The notes under the pieces are model-generated. The model was not told where the DNA came from. It worked only from the letters and a program-made list of their open reading frames with translations, and ran no database searches. Positions 59,394 through 62,842 of a stretch of DNA of 64,000 bases are shown here, piece by piece. Each line of letters opens with the position of its first letter. The stretch's first letter is position 1. Both the position numbers and the translations under genes were made by a program. The stretch is from the IMG/VR virus record IMGVR_UViG_3300013121_000023, positions 64,001 to 128,000 of that record; one strand, 5' to 3'. This DNA is from a virus (taxonomy: Duplodnaviria > Caudoviricetes).

Positions 59394-59406
59394 GAAAGAT
59401 TGTTTG

Positions 59407-59479
59407 TAGGACGCCCGGGACTTGAACCCGGAACCTGCGGATTAAAAGTCCGCTGCTCTACCTATTGAGCTAGCGACCC
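59407..59479 (-). tRNA. tRNA-Lys(TTT)
   Basis: Cloverleaf; anticodon arm GCGGA-CTTTTAA-TCCGC; GGTTCAAGTCC. Confidence 0.9.
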
Positions 59480-59490
59480 GAAGGAGAACC

Positions 59491-59799
59491 ATGACAACAG
59501 CAGCGCGCATGAGGGATTTGGTGGGCGAATATACCAAAAAAGTCATTAGTGAAAATGAGGAACATATAAATGAAAACTTGCTACCGATATTCCTTAAAGA
59601 CTTGTATTCTTGCATAGAATCAGCTGCATCTAAGGGACAGCGCACATACCAACATGCTATAAATCTTACAACCTTGAAGGTGCTGCATTTGGTTGTTCCA
59701 CAATTGAGAGATCGAGGTTATTTGGTAGAGTATATTACTAGTAGTACTACACAGCATCTTATGTACATGAACGTATCTTGGTCATTACTTGGTAGCTAA
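59491..59799 (+). CDS. hypothetical protein
   Basis: AAGGAG RBS. Confidence 0.55.
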   Translation: MTTAARMRDLVGEYTKKVISENEEHINENLLPIFLKDLYSCIESAASKGQRTYQHAINLTTLKVLHLVVPQLRDRGYLVEYITSSTTQHLMYMNVSWSLLGS

Positions 59800-60205
59800 A
59801 AAAGAAGAGAGCGAAAGCTCTCTTCTTTAAATACTTGAATCTATGCGCCTCAATGTATGAGGCCATTACCTCTGCAATGTAGTCGGGGGCAATTCCCCGA
59901 AGTGCATTGCGACTGAGCACTTTTGCGGTACCCTTCCCCCACGGTACCTTCACTGCCTCAATATATGGTTTGCCCTCCCCTTCTGGATGGCGCATTGTTA
60001 GCAAGTGTCTCGCTGCCTGCATCAGCAGGGAGCTTACCTCCTTCGGCTCCTCCAGCCAAAGGATGTGGATTACTGGGTGGTTCAGCACCACCCTCAATTG
60101 CTTTATGGTTTCTTCATTTGCAATATCAGTGTACCTAGTGCCCTCATGTACGAATGTCCTAATGTCCAACAGGGCCTTCCGAAGGCCCTCTATGTTTTCG
60201 TACAT
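59759..60205 (-). CDS. hypothetical protein, paralog family A
   Basis: LRVVLNHPVIHILW; IAPDYI; ATAAGA and AGGAGG upstream. Confidence 0.6.
   Translation of the reverse strand: MYENIEGLRKALLDIRTFVHEGTRYTDIANEETIKQLRVVLNHPVIHILWLEEPKEVSSLLMQAARHLLTMRHPEGEGKPYIEAVKVPWGKGTAKVLSRNALRGIAPDYIAEVMASYIEAHRFKYLKKRAFALFFFSYQVMTKIRSCT
59791..59828. terminator. bidirectional terminator
   Basis: AAAAAAGAAGAGAGC-GAAA-GCTCTCTTCTTT between convergent genes. Confidence 0.75.
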
Positions 60206-60318
60206 AGTACCTCCTTTCATATATCTTATGCCATTTTTACGAATAAATTAAGGTACACATAAGTAATAATCGAGGGGCTAAAGAAATGGAAGGATAGCTC
60301 CATCTCTAATAAGTGTTG

Positions 60319-60390
60319 TGCCCCAGAGAGGAATCGAACCTCCTTTAGCCTCCTTGTAAGGGAGGTGCCGGACCAGCTGGCTCCTGGGGC
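60319..60390 (-). tRNA. tRNA-Val(TAC)
   Basis: CCTCC-CTTACAA-GGAGG; GGTTCGATTCC. Confidence 0.85.
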
Positions 60391-60686
60391 AACTGTAACT
60401 TAGATATATCCAAAGAAAGGGAAATCAGCATACCAATGAATTGGTCTCTTCCTTTTTCTACTTCTGTTATGAATTCCGAAACCAATTTGGTTTCGGTCGT
60501 GCCATTTGACTCTATTGTCATGTTCATGTTATGAAAACATGACGATGCTGAATCTGGCCATATTGTGTGTGATACTTTATTAAACCGTTTGTGGAATAGA
60601 TGCCACGCATCTCTAAAGCAGTCTGTTACATAGACCATAACCACCAGTTCTTTTCTTTCTGTGTCCTTTATGAAGTAAACGTTCAT
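60345..60686 (-). CDS. hypothetical protein overlapping tRNA-Val
   Basis: AAGGA RBS; 113 aa. Confidence 0.5.
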   Translation of the reverse strand: MNVYFIKDTERKELVVMVYVTDCFRDAWHLFHKRFNKVSHTIWPDSASSCFHNMNMTIESNGTTETKLVSEFITEVEKGRDQFIGMLISLSLDISKLQLPQEPAGPAPPLQGG

Positions 60687-60722
60687 TCTTCATTCCTTTC
60701 ATTTTTACTCATATAGTAACAG

Positions 60723-60796
60723 TGGGACCACTCGGATTCGAACCGAGAACATCCCGGTTATGAGCCGGGGGCTCTGACCGATTGAGCTATAGTCCC
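60723..60796 (-). tRNA. tRNA-CAT, probably Ile2 (lysidine)
   Basis: CCCGG-CTCATAA-CCGGG; paired 1:72, so not an initiator. Confidence 0.85.
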
Positions 60797-60875
60797 AAAC
60801 AAGCCGTTTTTAAATAAACGGCAAGGATTTATTGCATGACGTGGCCTCAGCCCGCCTTATCTATGCAATACATCG

Positions 60876-60947
60876 AGCCCACTATGGGATTTGAACCCAT
60901 GACCTACGGTTTACAAAACCGTTGCTCTACCACTGAGCTATGTGGGC
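60876..60947 (-). tRNA. tRNA-Thr(TGT)
   Basis: ACGGT-TTTGTAA-ACCGT; canonical cloverleaf. Confidence 0.92.
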
Positions 60948-60950
60948 AGG

Positions 60951-61060
60951 AGCGACAGGCCCGAGTCGAACGGGCGACCAACGGAAAACCGCTGCTCTAC
61001 GGGGCCATCACCAGACAGAACGTTACTTGTCTGGCTTGTGACCTACTGAGCTACTGTCGC
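60951..61060 (-). ncRNA. tRNA-like RNA with D-loop hairpin insertion and 4-nt anticodon loop
   Basis: Perfect acceptor GCGACAG/CTGTCGC; T arm GCCCG-TTCGACT-CGGGC. Confidence 0.7.
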
Positions 61061-61083
61061 AAAAAAGGCTTATATAGCCTTTG

Positions 61084-61155
61084 TGGATCGTCTAGGAATT
61101 GAACCTAGGCACAGCGCTTATAAGACGCCGCAGGGCAACCAGCCCGTCACGATCC
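61084..61155 (-). tRNA. tRNA-Ile(TAT)
   Basis: GGCGT-CTTATAA-GCGCT; GGTTCAATTCC. Confidence 0.8.
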
Positions 61156-61234
61156 ATAAGAGGTACACCGGAGACCCGATGAAGCCTTCCGCCAGCATGG
61201 TAGGAAGAAGGAGTGTCACCACGATGTACCTCGG

Positions 61235-61306
61235 CATCCCTGACAGGATTTGAACCTGTGACCCGGAGATTAGAAATCTCCTGCTCTTCCGCTGAGCTAC
61301 AGGGAC
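61235..61306 (-). tRNA. tRNA-Arg(TCT)
   Basis: GGAGA-TTTCTAA-TCTCC. Confidence 0.92.
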
Positions 61307-61544
61307 ATCTACGCCTTCACTCATATTTCTTATTGCGCTATTTATTTGATTTTTTCTTACGGTAGCTAAAAATAGATAGGGTTTGCTGATATAGGAGTAA
61401 GTTGGCCCGCCGTCATGATCGCCGTTATACCGGATGGAGTCTGGAGTACAGCTACTATCAACCGGGCCGAGAAGATAGATTTACAACGAACTGGTGTGGT
61501 TCGTATGACTAACGGTCTTTCGGGGCGCCTCATCAAGACCGCTG

Positions 61545-61623
61545 TGCTCTTGGCAGGAGTCGAACCTGCAAATAATAAAGCCGCTTTTGAAACGGCCGCG
61601 TCTGCCTATTTCGCCACAAGAGC
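61545..61623 (-). tRNA. tRNA-Leu(CAA)
   Basis: GCCGT-TTCAAAA-GCGGC; T-rich 10-nt variable region. Confidence 0.85.
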
Positions 61624-61682
61624 TTTGGCCGTCACCCCCCACACCAACTACTAGAGCTGTGTGGGGGGGGGGTTTCGTAGGT

Positions 61683-61781
61683 AGACCCCGAGTTAGAAAG
61701 CCGTTCTGCATCTTCAGTATTCGGCGAAGAAAAAGAGAGTTGCACTCTTTTCGGGCGTGTATGGCTTTCTTGGTGGGGTCT
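61683..61781 (-). ncRNA. Y-RNA-like RNA 2
   Basis: AGACCCC/GGGGTCT terminal stem; T-arm-like AAGAG-TGCAACT-CTCTT followed by a closed hairpin. Confidence 0.6.
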
Positions 61782-61865
61782 TGGAAAGCGAAGAGGAATT
61801 GAACCTCTTATCTCCATTTCGGTAGTTGGCCTAGATGGATGGTTTTTGCCTTTAACCTACGCTTC
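61782..61865 (-). ncRNA. tRNA-like RNA with 17-nt anticodon loop
   Basis: D stem GGTT/AACC, TCCAT/ATGGA stem, GGTTCAATTCC, encoded CCA. Confidence 0.6.
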
Positions 61866-61870
61866 ATAAT

Positions 61871-62016
61871 GAGACCCGAGTTACTGCACCATTGTCCTTG
61901 TTAGGACTGGTTTTGGTTACCAGTTGCCGACCACCGGCACCTACCCCTTATACGGGGTAGCTAGGATTCGAACCTAGTTTTTGGGGTTGCGTGTAGGATG
62001 CAGTTGTTTGGGTCTC
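61871..62016 (-). ncRNA. Y-RNA-like RNA 1 / circularly permuted tRNA-Trp-like domain
   Basis: Order is T arm, loop-closed acceptor, D arm, anticodon arm, all inside a terminal stem. Confidence 0.7.
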
Positions 62017-62018
62017 GG

Positions 62019-62100
62019 TGCTGAGAGAGGGACTCGAACCCTCACGGTTTTACCCGCCGGTACCTAAAACCGGGGCGTCTACCTATTCCGCCACCTCAGC
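62019..62100 (-). tRNA. tRNA-Leu(TAG)
   Basis: CCGGT-TTTAGGT-ACCGG; long variable arm. Confidence 0.92.
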
Positions 62101-62174
62101 AAGAAAGGGTGTAAGTAACGTGTGTAGGGACGAACGGCGAAGAACATCCAAGTACTCACGTTAAGCACACCCTG

Positions 62175-62253
62175 TGGGGTAGATAGGGATCGCACCTATC
62201 AGCTCTGGGCAGCGGTTTTACAGACCGCCTGAAGCACTAGCTTCGTCTACCCC
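62175..62253 (-). tRNA. non-canonical tRNA-Tyr(GTA)
   Basis: GCGGT-CTGTAAA-ACCGC; A73; T-loop TGCGATC; atypical D arm. Confidence 0.7.
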
Positions 62254-62347
62254 TGGCGCGCTGGCTTTCATAGAACGTTGCTGTACAGCAGCTACAGCTA
62301 ACTACGAGCAGAGTCGTAACACTCTGACTCAAGCCGCGCAATCATTT

Positions 62348-62842
62348 TTATAAAGCTCTTCTTTTTTCTTTTGTAAAGAAGTCCAAGAGGTCTTGTGGAG
62401 AAGTAGCGCTTGGAACCAAGTCCGCCGAGCCTGGGTATTTGGCGGCCTTTAGGACGAACACAACGGATTCAGAGCAAAACATTGCGTGAGTGGTGTCAAA
62501 TGGGTTTCTCCATTTCATTTTTAGCCACTTACCTATTTGTACAAAGAATGCGCCTATTAGACCTGTGTAGTCATATCCACCACCTAGCCAATCTGTAGCC
62601 ACACGCACACCCTCATCTAGCGGTTCTTGCGGAGTTATTATTTCTACTATGTCGTGTGTTTCTGCAAACCTAGAAAAGGAGGTCAACTTGAATCCTCCCT
62701 TTGTAGCTTCCATAACCATGGATTTACCTAGAAATGCATTTTCTATGATAAGCCATACGTGACTTACACGGCTCTTTGTGACCGCGCGTATGATTCTAGA
62801 TATGACGTTGTTTTTGCTAGTAGAGAATCCTATTCTGACCAC
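62348..62842 (-). CDS. permuted papain-like amidase (YaeF/YiiX, NlpC/P60 superfamily)
   Basis: SRVSHV, MEA, YDY, MFCSE. Confidence 0.8.
   Translation of the reverse strand: MVRIGFSTSKNNVISRIIRAVTKSRVSHVWLIIENAFLGKSMVMEATKGGFKLTSFSRFAETHDIVEIITPQEPLDEGVRVATDWLGGGYDYTGLIGAFFVQIGKWLKMKWRNPFDTTHAMFCSESVVFVLKAAKYPGSADLVPSATSPQDLLDFFTKEKRRAL

What the first reader, a model, noticed from the sequence alone, without database searches (positions are those of the whole stretch)
61683..62016. Two paralogous Y-RNA-like RNAs, one holding a circularly permuted tRNA-Trp-like domain
Seen (minus strand), RNA1 62016-61871: GAGACCC-AAACA-ACTGCATC-C-TACACGC-linker, T arm CTAGG-TTCGAAT-CCTAG, acceptor CTACCCC-GTATAA-GGGGTAG closed by a loop, D arm GCCG-GTGGT-CGGC, anticodon arm ACTGGT-AACCAAA-ACCAGT, then GGTGCAGT-AACTC-GGGTCTC. 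G73 plus a central CCA are Trp identity elements. RNA2 61781-61683: AGACCCC-ACCA-AGAAAGCC-A-TACACGC, T-like arm, closed hairpin, GGCTTTCT-AACTC-GGGGTCT. The terminal stem, AACTC internal loop and TACACGC are shared, while the second helix differs in sequence yet stays paired. Known: YrlA Y RNAs have the T-acceptor-D order on a Ro60-binding stem, but they lack an anticodon arm and carry GNCGAA(N)G, which is absent here. Inference: a new family of protein-tethering tRNA mimics, or a permuted tRNA gene.
Basis: partly seen in the sequence, partly recalled or inferred. Interest (0 to 1): 0.85.

Follow-up and report, generated by a model that had tools for sequence, protein, structure and literature searches.

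The report
Phage tRNA-mimic RNAs without Ro60 partner
Two small structured RNAs in a phage's tRNA gene cluster are real: one is a back-to-front, sealed copy of the neighbouring tyrosine tRNA on a double-helix "handle", and both descend from phage Y-RNA-like RNAs that normally accompany a Ro60-like protein, which this phage lacks.

Summary
RNA1 (62016-61871, minus strand) and RNA2 (61781-61683) fold as described (z -5.4 and -3.8). They keep those folds within the 477-nt stretch of the tRNA operon that I folded. They share an identical outer stem, an AACUC loop and UACACGC, while the second helix differs by five compensatory pair changes.

New here:
- RNA1's un-permuted body aligns without gaps to the phage's own tRNA-Tyr 160 nt upstream (48/78 identical, z 7.1). 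The acceptor stems are identical and five stem pairs changed compensatorily. It is therefore Tyr-derived, not Trp-like, and it lacks U8, A14 and U33.
- RNA1 is homologous (77/111, z 7.2) to a 125-nt RNA in two other phages. That RNA carries an ACAGCAA handle and lies about 7 kb upstream of a DUF2828 gene whose model matches Ro60 structures.
- This phage has no TROVE, DUF2828 or RtcB gene, and its ACAGCAA motif is replaced by the second helix.
- There was no Rfam YrlA match and no closer relative in any collection I scanned.

Verdict: these are most likely functional, non-decoding Y-RNA-like tRNA mimics with a remodelled handle. A permuted tRNA gene is unlikely. This scan had already noted the wider handle-RNA family on other DNA. 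The partner protein and the function remain inferred.

The parts
61871..62016 (-). RNA1, 146 nt: handle plus a sealed, circularly permuted tRNA-Tyr-derived body
   Evidence: Sequence. Fold z -5.4. Part index. Homology to tRNA-Tyr and to E1 of G051/G053.
62010..62016 (-). RNA1 helix 1, 5' strand GAGACCC; pairs with 61871-61877 GGGUCUC
   Evidence: Pair probabilities 0.97-1.0. AGACCC/GGGUCU is identical in RNA2, E1 and E1'.
61997..62004 (-). RNA1 helix 2, 5' strand ACUGCAUC; pairs with 61883-61890 GGUGCAGU. Flanked by internal-loop strands AAACA (62005-62009) and AACUC (61878-61882)
   Evidence: Five compensatory double changes against RNA2. This segment is the former ACAGCAA site with a 3-nt insertion.
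61978..61996 (-). RNA1 single-stranded A/C-rich linker CUACACGCAACCCCAAAAA. It holds the shared UACACGC and a YUAY-type CUAC
   Evidence: Unpaired in the MFE and centroid folds. UACACGC is shared with RNA2 and is UACAAGC in E1. The YUAY motif of YrlA is described in PMC4201824.
61941..61977 (-). RNA1 T arm CUAGG-UUCGAAU-CCUAG, then acceptor 3' strand CUACCCC, cap GUAUAA and acceptor 5' strand GGGGUAG
   Evidence: The acceptor is identical to that of tRNA-Tyr. It is the only T-arm-plus-capped-hairpin signature among the loci I checked: L001 (the 3.3 kb around the RNAs) and eight tRNA regions of relatives.
61894..61939 (-). RNA1 D arm (GCCG-GUGGU-CGGC), anticodon-like arm (CUGGU-AACCAAA-ACCAG) and V-like hairpin (UCCU-AACA-AGGA)
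   Evidence: Aligned arm by arm with tRNA-Tyr, with two compensatory changes each in the D and anticodon stems.
61683..61781 (-). RNA2, 99 nt: the same handle (AGACCCC / ACCA / AGAAAGCC ... GGCUUUCU / AACUC / GGGGUCU) carrying a T-like hairpin (61731-61751) and a second hairpin (61711-61730). No D or anticodon arm
   Evidence: (z -3.8).
62174..62253 (-). tRNA-Tyr(GUA), the linear paralog of RNA1's body. It is itself unusual: T loop UGCGAUC and a 6-nt D loop
   Evidence: ARAGORN. Not reported by Rfam at the gathering score. Alignment to the un-permuted RNA1 body 48/78 identical, z 7.1.
61782..61870 (-). tRNA-like RNA between RNA1 and RNA2, with a 17-nt anticodon loop and an encoded CCA. RNA2 starts directly after its CCA
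   Evidence: Not called by ARAGORN. It sits where tRNA-Phe sits after E1 in G051, with the same AUUAU spacer and the same T loop UUCAAUU.
62017..62100 (-). tRNA-Leu(UAG). RNA1 starts directly after its 3' end
   Evidence: Co-fold of the stretch.
61544..61623 (-). tRNA-Leu(CAA), the next gene downstream of RNA2 after a G/C-rich hairpin spacer

Best explanation
RNA1 and RNA2 are most likely functional, non-decoding small RNAs of the Y-RNA-like 'handle plus tRNA mimic' kind.

How they are made (inferred). They are transcribed as part of the phage's minus-strand tRNA operon. They are set free when RNase P and the 3'-end enzymes trim the tRNAs that abut them.

What each RNA is (shown). Each consists of a clamp and a cargo.
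- The clamp is helix 1, a 5x5 or 4x5 internal loop, helix 2, and a conserved single-stranded UACACGC/A-C-rich tract.
- RNA1's cargo is a sealed, circularly permuted copy of the phage's own class-II tRNA-Tyr. Its acceptor end is closed by a 6-nt loop, and U8, A14, U33 and the GUA anticodon are gone.
- RNA2's cargo is only a T-arm-like hairpin directly followed by a second hairpin. I read this as an acceptor/T minihelix mimic.

Descent (shown). The lineage comes from phage ACAGCAA-handle RNAs that accompany a Ro60-like (DUF2828) ring protein. In this phage that gene is absent, and the ACAGCAA site has been turned into helix 2.

Proposed mechanism (inferred). The RNAs work without a phage Ro60-like protein, as stable tRNA-shaped scaffolds or decoys. 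The clamp and single strand would hold a partner. The most plausible partner is a host enzyme such as PNPase, which the phiLo Y-like RNAs bind on their own. A host Ro60-like protein or a tRNA-recognising or tRNA-cleaving enzyme is also possible. The sealed, mutated body cannot be charged or decoded. RNase P may nick RNA1 at G70, as it does the 147-nt Mycobacterium smegmatis YrlA, which also has a 7-bp acceptor stem.
For: - Structure and paralog covariation.
- Selection on the tRNA fold: the un-permuted RNA1 body against tRNA-Tyr is 48/78 identical, z 7.1 (other tRNAs 3.9 or less). The acceptor is identical, and five compensatory double changes (2 in D, 2 in anticodon, 1 in T stem) occur with none disruptive.
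- Non-decoding: ARAGORN rejects the un-permuted body at its default threshold. The loop is AACCAAA with A33, position 8 is G, and the D loop has 5 nt.
- Family link: RNA1 against E1 (L108:184-308) is 77/111 identical, z 7.2. They share AGACCC, ACA..GCA, UACA(A/C)GC and the 3' spacer AUUAU, none of which was in the search pattern.
- E1 and its ortholog E1' covary in the T and acceptor stems.
- E1 and E1' lie 7.1 and 7.6 kb upstream, on the same strand, of a DUF2828+DUF7788 gene. The AF2 model of that protein (pLDDT 81) has Ro60/TROVE structures as its 13 best PDB matches.
- No TROVE, DUF2828, DUF7788 or homolog of that protein in this complete genome.
- Published parallels. YrlA has the order V-T-acceptor-D. 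M. smegmatis YrlA is cut by RNase P and gains CCA. Characterised species have two or more Y RNAs, one of them tRNA-like. Yrn2 is co-transcribed with a tRNA (PMC4201824). The phage phiLo Yrl RNAs bind host PNPase (PMC12135203).
Against: - I have no expression, processing or binding data.
- No ortholog of the remodelled handle was found in IMG/VR, JGI metagenomes or 185,579 species genomes. Nor was one found in 50 related phage records. The support therefore rests on two paralogs and one outgroup lineage.
- The motif thought to mark the Ro60-like partner (ACAGCAA) is destroyed and the partner gene is missing. That also fits decay.
- Every spacer of this operon is strongly structured with a closing stem, so closing stems are not special here.
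- No neighbouring gene gives a partner candidate.
- No antisense target longer than 11 nt exists in the phage.
Confidence: 0.55

Rival explanations
1. Decaying relics. After this phage lineage lost its Ro60-like gene, the former partner RNAs drifted. The ACAGCAA site was hit by an insertion, and the RNAs persist only as inert, processed spacers of the tRNA operon.
For: ACAGCAA is interrupted in RNA1 and absent in RNA2. No DUF2828 or TROVE gene is present. No orthologs of the new handle were found anywhere. The anticodon loop, U8 and D loop are degenerate.
Against: Helix 2 has diverged to 3 of 8 identical bases on its 5' strand yet keeps all 8 pairs through five double changes. Meanwhile 22 bases of helix 1, AACUC and UACACGC stay identical. 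RNA1's D, anticodon and T stems kept pairing through five double changes against tRNA-Tyr. The folding z-scores are -5.4 and -3.8. Drift would break helices.
Confidence: 0.17
2. Processing scaffolds. The closing helices with an internal loop are cleavage or protection signals (RNase III-like or anti-RNase E) that help mature the polycistronic tRNA transcript. The tRNA-like cargo is incidental.
For: All spacers between the tRNAs of this operon fold into stable structures closed by their own ends. RNA1 and RNA2 abut tRNA ends directly. An irregular hairpin of two helices with an internal loop is the general shape of phage RNase III sites (my own knowledge, not tested here).
Against: Processing stems need neither a canonical T loop, nor a 7-bp capped acceptor, nor a conserved 19-nt single strand. 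RNA1 is homologous to an RNA family that travels with a Ro60-like gene. The other spacers share no sequence with the handle.
Confidence: 0.13
3. True permuted (or split) tRNA. RNA1 is opened at the sealed acceptor by RNase P and given a CCA end. It then works as a chargeable tRNA with anticodon CCA, either after the handle is excised and the ends ligated, or as two pieces clamped by the handle.
For: All tRNA arms are present in rotated order, and ARAGORN calls the rotated sequence tRNA-Trp(cca) at its lowered threshold. The 7-bp acceptor plus canonical T arm is the RNase P determinant that made M. smegmatis YrlA a substrate, followed by CCA addition (PMC4201824). The phage has unusual decoding: TTA is nearly absent inside long ORFs (52 of 40,271 codons, most at ORF ends) and there is a CUA-anticodon tRNA.
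Against: A33 replaces the universal U33, G8 replaces U8, and the 5-nt D loop lacks A14 and A21. ARAGORN rejects it at default. The body is Tyr-derived, with a long V arm that tRNA-Trp lacks. There is no bulge-helix-bulge at the termini and no RtcB in the phage. The cap is GUAUAA with no CCA, whereas E1 and E1' keep ACCA. RNA2 and E1 share the handle but have no anticodon arm.
Confidence: 0.05

Closest known systems
YrlA / bacterial and phage Y RNAs bound by Ro60 (Rsr); Rfam RF02553; Chen et al. 2014 (PMC4201824); Thermus phage phiLo Yrl1/Yrl2 (PMC12135203)
   Same: A stem formed by the 5' and 3' ends carries a tRNA-like module in the order T arm, loop-sealed acceptor, D arm. A YUAY-type CUAC follows the stem. 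RNA1 is 146 nt and M. smegmatis YrlA is 147 nt, both with a 7-bp acceptor stem. There are two RNAs per genome, one tRNA-like and one smaller. They are co-transcribed with tRNAs. Deinococcus Yrn1 also has an anticodon-like arm.
   Different: There is no Rfam hit at E up to 10. There is no GNCGAAN0-1G or CGAA motif and no bulged helix. No Ro60/TROVE gene occurs anywhere in the complete phage genome. RNA1 keeps a full anticodon arm and a long variable arm. The handle is two perfect helices around a symmetric internal loop.
ACAGCAA-handle RNAs next to DUF2828 (Ro60-like) genes in phages. I found no paper and no Rfam hit for the four E1-E4 examples. Noted repeatedly by this scan; examples E1-E4 in IMGVR_UViG_3300021255_001482
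   Same: RNA1 is homologous to E1: 77/111 identical, z 7.2. They share the same helix 1 (AGACCC/GGGUCU), the same acceptor stem, UACA(A/C)GC and the same 3' spacer. Both start right after a tRNA's CCA inside a tRNA cluster.
   Different: ACAGCAA is interrupted by a 3-nt insertion and paired into a new helix 2 with a new 3' segment and an AACUC loop. E1 has no anticodon arm, and its cap keeps A73-CCA. The Ro60-like gene, present about 7 kb downstream in both E1 phages, is absent here.
Circularly permuted tRNA genes of Cyanidioschyzon merolae and some other algae and archaea (my own knowledge; mentioned in PMC4090602 and PMC3400036, listed)
   Same: The 3' half (T arm and acceptor 3' strand) precedes the 5' half, joined by a short intervening sequence at the acceptor end.
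   Different: Those genes mature through a bulge-helix-bulge cut and ligation to a circular intermediate, and give canonical tRNAs. Here there is no such motif, no ligase gene was found, and invariant tRNA nucleotides are missing.
Small stable RNAs of phage tRNA clusters: T4 rnaC (species 1) and rnaD (species 2)
   Same: Non-tRNA stable RNAs encoded in and processed from a phage tRNA operon. rnaC has a canonical T arm. Function is unknown.
   Different: rnaC has the normal (not rotated) order with an open acceptor end, and shows no handle (fold). There is no sequence similarity.

Membership tests
YrlA (Rfam RF02553) | Match to the Rfam covariance model at the gathering score (69 bits) | tested here: not met
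   cmscan of 61300-62400 at E up to 10 lists no YrlA or Y_RNA match on RNA1 or RNA2. The only YrlA row (15.1 bits, E 6.4) lies on tRNA-Leu(CAA) and its spacer.
YrlA (Rfam RF02553) | GNCGAAN0-1G motif near the 5' end (putative Ro60 contact; PMC4201824) | tested here: not met
   The 5' ends read GAGACCCAAACAACUG and AGACCCCACCAAGAAAG, with no GNCGAA.
YrlA (Rfam RF02553) | tRNA-like domain in the order (V)-T-sealed acceptor-D on a stem made by the two ends | tested here: met
   RNA1 fold. ARAGORN cloverleaf of the rotated sequence at the lowered threshold. RNA2 has only the T-like hairpin and a second hairpin.
YrlA (Rfam RF02553) | Encoded within about 4 kb of a Ro60/TROVE gene on the same strand | tested here: not met
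   No PF05731 match at E up to 1 in the complete 177-kb genome, read in six frames. Nearby ORFs have no such domain.
YrlA (Rfam RF02553) | Bound by Ro60/Rsr; pseudouridine 55 made by TruB | not testable with these tools
   Needs immunoprecipitation and modification mapping.
ACAGCAA-handle RNAs with a DUF2828 (Ro60-like) partner | 7-9-bp closing stem, 1-3 bases, then (A)CAGCAA | tested here: not met
   RNA1 has ACA-ACU-GCA and RNA2 has CCAAGAAAGC at that place (alignment A5). A descriptor scan found no CNGCAA handle in the cluster. E1-E4 of G051 all have it.
ACAGCAA-handle RNAs with a DUF2828 (Ro60-like) partner | Sequence homology to a member | tested here: met
   RNA1 against E1 is 77/111 identical, z 7.2, including helix 1, UACA(A/C)GC and the 3' spacer, which were outside the search pattern. 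RNA2 matches E2 only locally (inconclusive).
ACAGCAA-handle RNAs with a DUF2828 (Ro60-like) partner | DUF2828/DUF7788 gene in the same genome, near the RNAs | tested here: not met
   None in G000. Present 7.1 and 7.6 kb from E1 and E1' in G051 and G053. The Ro60-like fold of that protein is shown.
Permuted tRNA genes (Cyanidioschyzon type) | 3' half upstream of 5' half, joined at the acceptor end | tested here: met
Permuted tRNA genes (Cyanidioschyzon type) | Bulge-helix-bulge motif formed by the transcript's termini, with a splicing endonuclease and ligase | tested here: not met
   The termini form 7 bp, a 5x5 loop and 8 bp, with no 3-4-3 bulge-helix-bulge. No RtcB in the phage. Host enzymes are unknown. 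I did not search for other RNA ligases or for the endonuclease family.
Permuted tRNA genes (Cyanidioschyzon type) | The rotated sequence is a canonical, decodable tRNA | tested here: not met
   ARAGORN at default finds nothing. G8, A33 and a 5-nt D loop are present.

The most novel reading that the evidence does not exclude
RNA1 is a working two-piece tRNA. RNase P opens the sealed acceptor and the tail is trimmed and given CCA. The two halves, clamped by the 15-bp handle, are then charged and read UGG (or another codon) in a phage that already departs from the standard code (TTA almost absent inside ORFs, its own CUA-anticodon tRNA). That would be the first split or permuted tRNA in a virus or in the bacterial world.
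Probability: 0.04. Interest if true: 0.9.

Novelty: new variant of a known kind. Interest (0 to 1): 0.5.

Why it matters
Y RNAs are defined by their Ro60 partner, and the job of their tRNA-like module is still unknown. Here a phage lacks any Ro60-like gene. It has kept, under visible selection, two descendants of Ro60-associated RNAs, with the presumed protein-binding motif rebuilt into a new helix.

If these RNAs are active, the tRNA-mimic module has a function of its own. That could be exonuclease capture, or acting as a decoy for tRNA-directed host enzymes. It could then be studied without Ro60.

The clear descent of RNA1 from the adjacent tRNA-Tyr also gives a worked example of how a tRNA gene becomes a permuted mimic.

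It adds to the evidence that phage tRNA clusters hold many non-decoding tRNA look-alikes. This cluster has at least four.

Tried and rejected
1. Rfam at the gathering score and at E up to 10: tRNAs only. E1-E4 also miss YrlA.

2. Exact handle patterns. Both halves with two payload ranges gave 0 hits in IMG/VR and 0 in JGI metagenomes. The 5' half alone gave one chance hit inside a coding region and 0 in 185,579 species genomes. RNA1's T-arm and acceptor 22-mer gave 0 in those genomes.

3. blastn against 50,697 phage records found only T-arm-sized matches. E1 also has no match there.

4. A covariance model of RNA1 (R1) found nothing at E up to 1 in 50 related phage records located through the portal protein. 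It does not even detect RNA2, so it is too cargo-specific. Those relatives carry at most 4 tRNAs, and their tRNA regions show no T-arm-plus-capped-hairpin signature.

5. Synteny through neighbouring proteins. The 265-aa ORF has no relatives. The 163-aa amidase-like ORF has relatives, but none next to tRNA clusters.

7. Partner hunt: no TROVE, DUF2828, DUF7788 or RtcB. Pfam, PHROGs and ESM Atlas on neighbours gave nothing RNA-related; the 398-aa ORF looks fibre-like.

8. Antisense targets of the conserved single strand and loops: none longer than 11 nt.

9. T4 rnaC and rnaD have a different topology.

10. A single-sequence AF2 model of the DUF2828 protein was useless (pLDDT 41); the alignment-based model worked. 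A profile search of PDB sequences found nothing.

11. Relatives cannot be drawn for a virus record.

12. The RNA2-E2 orthology idea rests on a 17-nt local match only and is not significant overall.
Full report
**Context.** The window is bases 64,001-128,000 of a complete 177,132-bp uncultured virus with direct terminal repeats. On the minus strand, 59,406-62,253 is a tRNA operon. ARAGORN finds Tyr, Leu(UAG), Leu(CAA), Arg, Ile(UAU), Thr, Met, Val and Lys. Rfam confirms seven of them at the gathering score and misses Tyr and Ile. The finding lies between the two tRNA-Leu genes. RNA1 (62016-61871) starts right after tRNA-Leu(UAG). Five bases later comes a tRNA-like RNA with a 17-nt anticodon loop and an encoded CCA (61870-61782). 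RNA2 (61781-61683) starts directly after that CCA.

**Observation.**
- RNAfold gives the described architecture for both RNAs. RNA1 scores -59.8 kcal/mol (z -5.4) and RNA2 -31.7 kcal/mol (z -3.8); no shuffle of 200 folds as well.
- The two handle helices have pair probabilities of 0.72-1.0. The same folds come out when the 477-nt stretch 62100-61624 is folded as one molecule.
- The genome holds just these two copies.
- The two RNAs share AGACCC, UACACGC, a CCC-N-AAAA tract and UAACUCGGG.
- Helix 2 (ACUGCAUC/GGUGCAGU against AGAAAGCC/GGCUUUCU) differs at six of eight pairs, five of them on both sides, and stays fully paired. A random 8-mer would do so with probability 4.5e-5.
- Identical loops beside a fully re-written helix point to selection on structure and on loop sequence, not chance or recent duplication alone.

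**What RNA1's cargo is.** I rotated RNA1 (nt 70-123, then 40-64). ARAGORN draws a cloverleaf, 'tRNA-Trp(cca)' with a long variable arm, but only at its lowered threshold and not at default.

The reason became clear from the neighbouring genes. The phage's tRNA-Tyr(GUA), 160 nt upstream, has the same acceptor stem, GGGGUAG/CUACCCC.
- The rotated body (79 nt) aligns to tRNA-Tyr (80 nt) practically without gaps: 48/78 identical, z 7.1. The other eight tRNAs reach z 3.9 at most.
- Arm by arm, the D stem has two pairs changed on both sides, the anticodon stem two and the T stem one. No pair is broken.
- The anticodon loop changed from CUGUAAA to AACCAAA, and the discriminator from A to G.
- RNA1 is therefore a circularly permuted paralog of tRNA-Tyr, a class-II tRNA, which explains the long variable arm.
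- The 'Trp identity' reading is not supported. The loop has A33 in place of the universal U33, position 8 is G, and the D loop has five bases without A14 or A21. I infer that the body cannot decode. Its acceptor end is closed by GUAUAA.

RNA2 carries only a T-like hairpin (loop UGCAACU) followed directly by a second hairpin. I read this as an acceptor/T minihelix mimic.

**Relatives.** Searches with the handle found nothing.
- Strict patterns gave 0 hits in IMG/VR and JGI metagenomes.
- The 5' half alone gave one chance hit in a coding region and none in 185,579 species genomes.
- blastn against cultured phages gave nothing.
- A covariance model of RNA1 found nothing in 50 related phage records. 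Those records have at most four tRNAs.

A pattern built on the cargo (ATCC-NNN-CTACCCC, a 3-9-base loop, GGGGTAG) returned eight places. Two are the same 125-nt element, E1 (L108:184-308 and L113), between tRNA-Val and tRNA-Phe of a tRNA-rich phage.

Beyond the pattern, E1 shares with RNA1:
- helix 1 (AGACCC/GGGUCU);
- the start directly after a tRNA's CCA;
- ACA..GCA;
- UACAAGC, against UACACGC here;
- the 3' spacer AUUAU.

Overall they are 77/111 identical, z 7.2. A second scan found an ortholog, E1', in a complete 184-kb phage. Its T and acceptor stems changed compensatorily and its cap ACCA is conserved.

E1 has the layout: closing stem, U, ACAGCAAUU, V hairpin, T arm, sealed acceptor, D arm. 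This is the YrlA order. It is also the 'ACAGCAA handle' that earlier notes of this scan describe. Three more such RNAs (E2-E4) lie in the same cluster.

**The partner in the relatives, and its absence here.**
- Both E1 phages encode a 511-aa DUF2828+DUF7788 protein 7.1 and 7.6 kb downstream on the same strand.
- I tested the claim that this protein is Ro60-like. An AlphaFold2 model from a 33-sequence alignment (pLDDT 81, pTM 0.78) has Ro60/TROVE structures as its 13 best PDB matches. They include Deinococcus Rsr, Xenopus Ro60 and Thermus phage phiLo Ro60 (E 8e-8 to 3.5e-5, TM 0.44-0.58 over the full length).
- In our complete genome there is no TROVE, DUF2828 or DUF7788 domain, no homolog of that protein, and no RtcB.
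- Nearby ORFs gave no RNA-related lead.

**What changed in this lineage.** In the alignment, RNA1 reads ACA-ACU-GCAUCC where E1 reads ACA-GCAAUU. This is a 3-nt insertion inside ACAGCAA. The segment now pairs with a new 3' segment to form helix 2, leaving the AACUC/AAACA internal loop. RNA2 has the same length and design, so the remodelled handle predates the RNA1/RNA2 split. It has been kept while helix 2 was rewritten. RNA1 also keeps a tRNA-Tyr anticodon arm and variable arm that E1 lacks.

**Mechanism.**
- Shown: two structured paralogs under structural selection inside a tRNA operon; descent of RNA1 from tRNA-Tyr; homology to a Ro60-like-associated RNA; absence of that protein gene here.
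- Inferred from published work: release by tRNA processing, since Yrn2 is co-transcribed with tRNA-Asp.
- Inferred: possible RNase P nicking at the 7-bp acceptor, since M. smegmatis YrlA (147 nt) is cut and gains CCA (PMC4201824).
- Inferred: binding of host PNPase or another tRNA-recognising factor without Ro60, since phiLo Yrl1 and Yrl2 bind PNPase on their own (PMC12135203).
- tRNA-Tyr is a known battleground: retron-Eco7 PtuAB degrades it and T5 counters with its own copy (PMC11555353). A Tyr-shaped decoy is therefore conceivable. However, the anticodon loop is not Tyr-like, which weakens that specific idea.
- I put 0.55 on 'functional non-decoding Y-like mimic with a remodelled, Ro60-independent handle'.
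- The rivals get 0.17 (decaying relics), 0.13 (mere processing structures; all spacers of this operon are strongly folded) and 0.05 (real permuted or split tRNA).

**Comparison and novelty.** These RNAs work like YrlA-type Y RNAs but fail three of the four membership tests I could run: the Rfam model, the GNCGAA motif and Ro60 adjacency. They are kin of the ACAGCAA-handle RNAs but lack both the motif and the partner gene. I found no paper on permuted tRNAs in phages or on DUF2828 and RNA.

The scan had already found the wider handle-RNA family on other DNA many times, so the kind is not new to this project. New here are the Tyr origin, the rebuilt handle and the missing partner. I class the finding as a new variant of a known kind, with interest 0.5.

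**Limits.**
- There are no transcript or binding data.
- The host is unknown.

Noticed in passing
window 62174-62253 (-); L117:6963-7050: The phage tRNA-Tyr(GUA) is itself non-canonical. Its T loop is UGCGAUC (G at position 55), its D loop has 6 nt, and positions 8-9 are AC. Rfam does not report it at the gathering score. The unrelated phage G051 has a tRNA-Tyr with the same kind of T loop (UGCGAUU), seen by ARAGORN only at the lowered threshold.
   Followed up: partly
window 61782-61870 (-): The tRNA-like RNA with a 17-nt anticodon loop and encoded CCA sits where tRNA-Phe(GAA) sits after E1 in G051 and G053. It has the same AUUAU spacer and the same T loop UUCAAUU. The 3' part of its loop reads CCGAAA, so it could be a Phe-tRNA derivative with about 10 extra bases. 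Overall alignment to tRNA-Phe is weak (z 1.8).
   Followed up: partly
window 59480-62350 (-), all spacers of the tRNA operon: Every spacer between the tRNAs folds into a stable structure closed by its own ends. Examples are Tyr-Leu (73 nt, -28.6 kcal/mol), Arg-Ile (77 nt, -31.1) and Ile-Thr (135 nt, -57.6); the last holds the tRNA mimic noted elsewhere at 60951-61060.
   Followed up: no
whole genome G000: TTA is almost absent from long ORFs: 52 of 40,271 codons, against 844 CTA and 1,319 ATA. Most of the 52 lie within the first or last tenth of an ORF. This agrees with earlier notes that TTA acts as a stop. The tRNA set has Leu(CAA) and Leu(UAG) but no Leu(UAA).
   Followed up: partly
G000:C1:135413-135485 (-), outside the window: A tRNA with anticodon CUA (reads UAG), called 'tRNA-Pyl' by ARAGORN.
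   Followed up: no
L114:1447-2979 (+) in IMGVR_UViG_3300021255_001482: The DUF2828+DUF7788 protein of tRNA-rich phages models as a Ro60-like HEAT ring plus vWA domain. At least 7,977 relatives at E below 1e-10 exist in the protein collection, many on contigs of 150-190 kb. No paper links DUF2828 to RNA.
   Followed up: yes
L117:5785-7116 (G051 38.8-40.1 kb): Four RNAs with a 7-bp closing stem, 1-2 bases and ACAGCAAUU lie between tRNA genes. E3 has a canonical T arm and a capped hairpin. E1 and E1' keep A73-CCA inside the cap, which hints at RNase P opening and a ready-made CCA end.
   Followed up: partly
window 62351-62842 (-): The ORF just upstream of the tRNA operon belongs to a conserved phage family. 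Its most distant listed relative carries PF05708, a permuted papain-like amidase, and a conserved Ser, His and Cys are present. Relatives in other phages are not next to tRNA clusters.
   Followed up: partly
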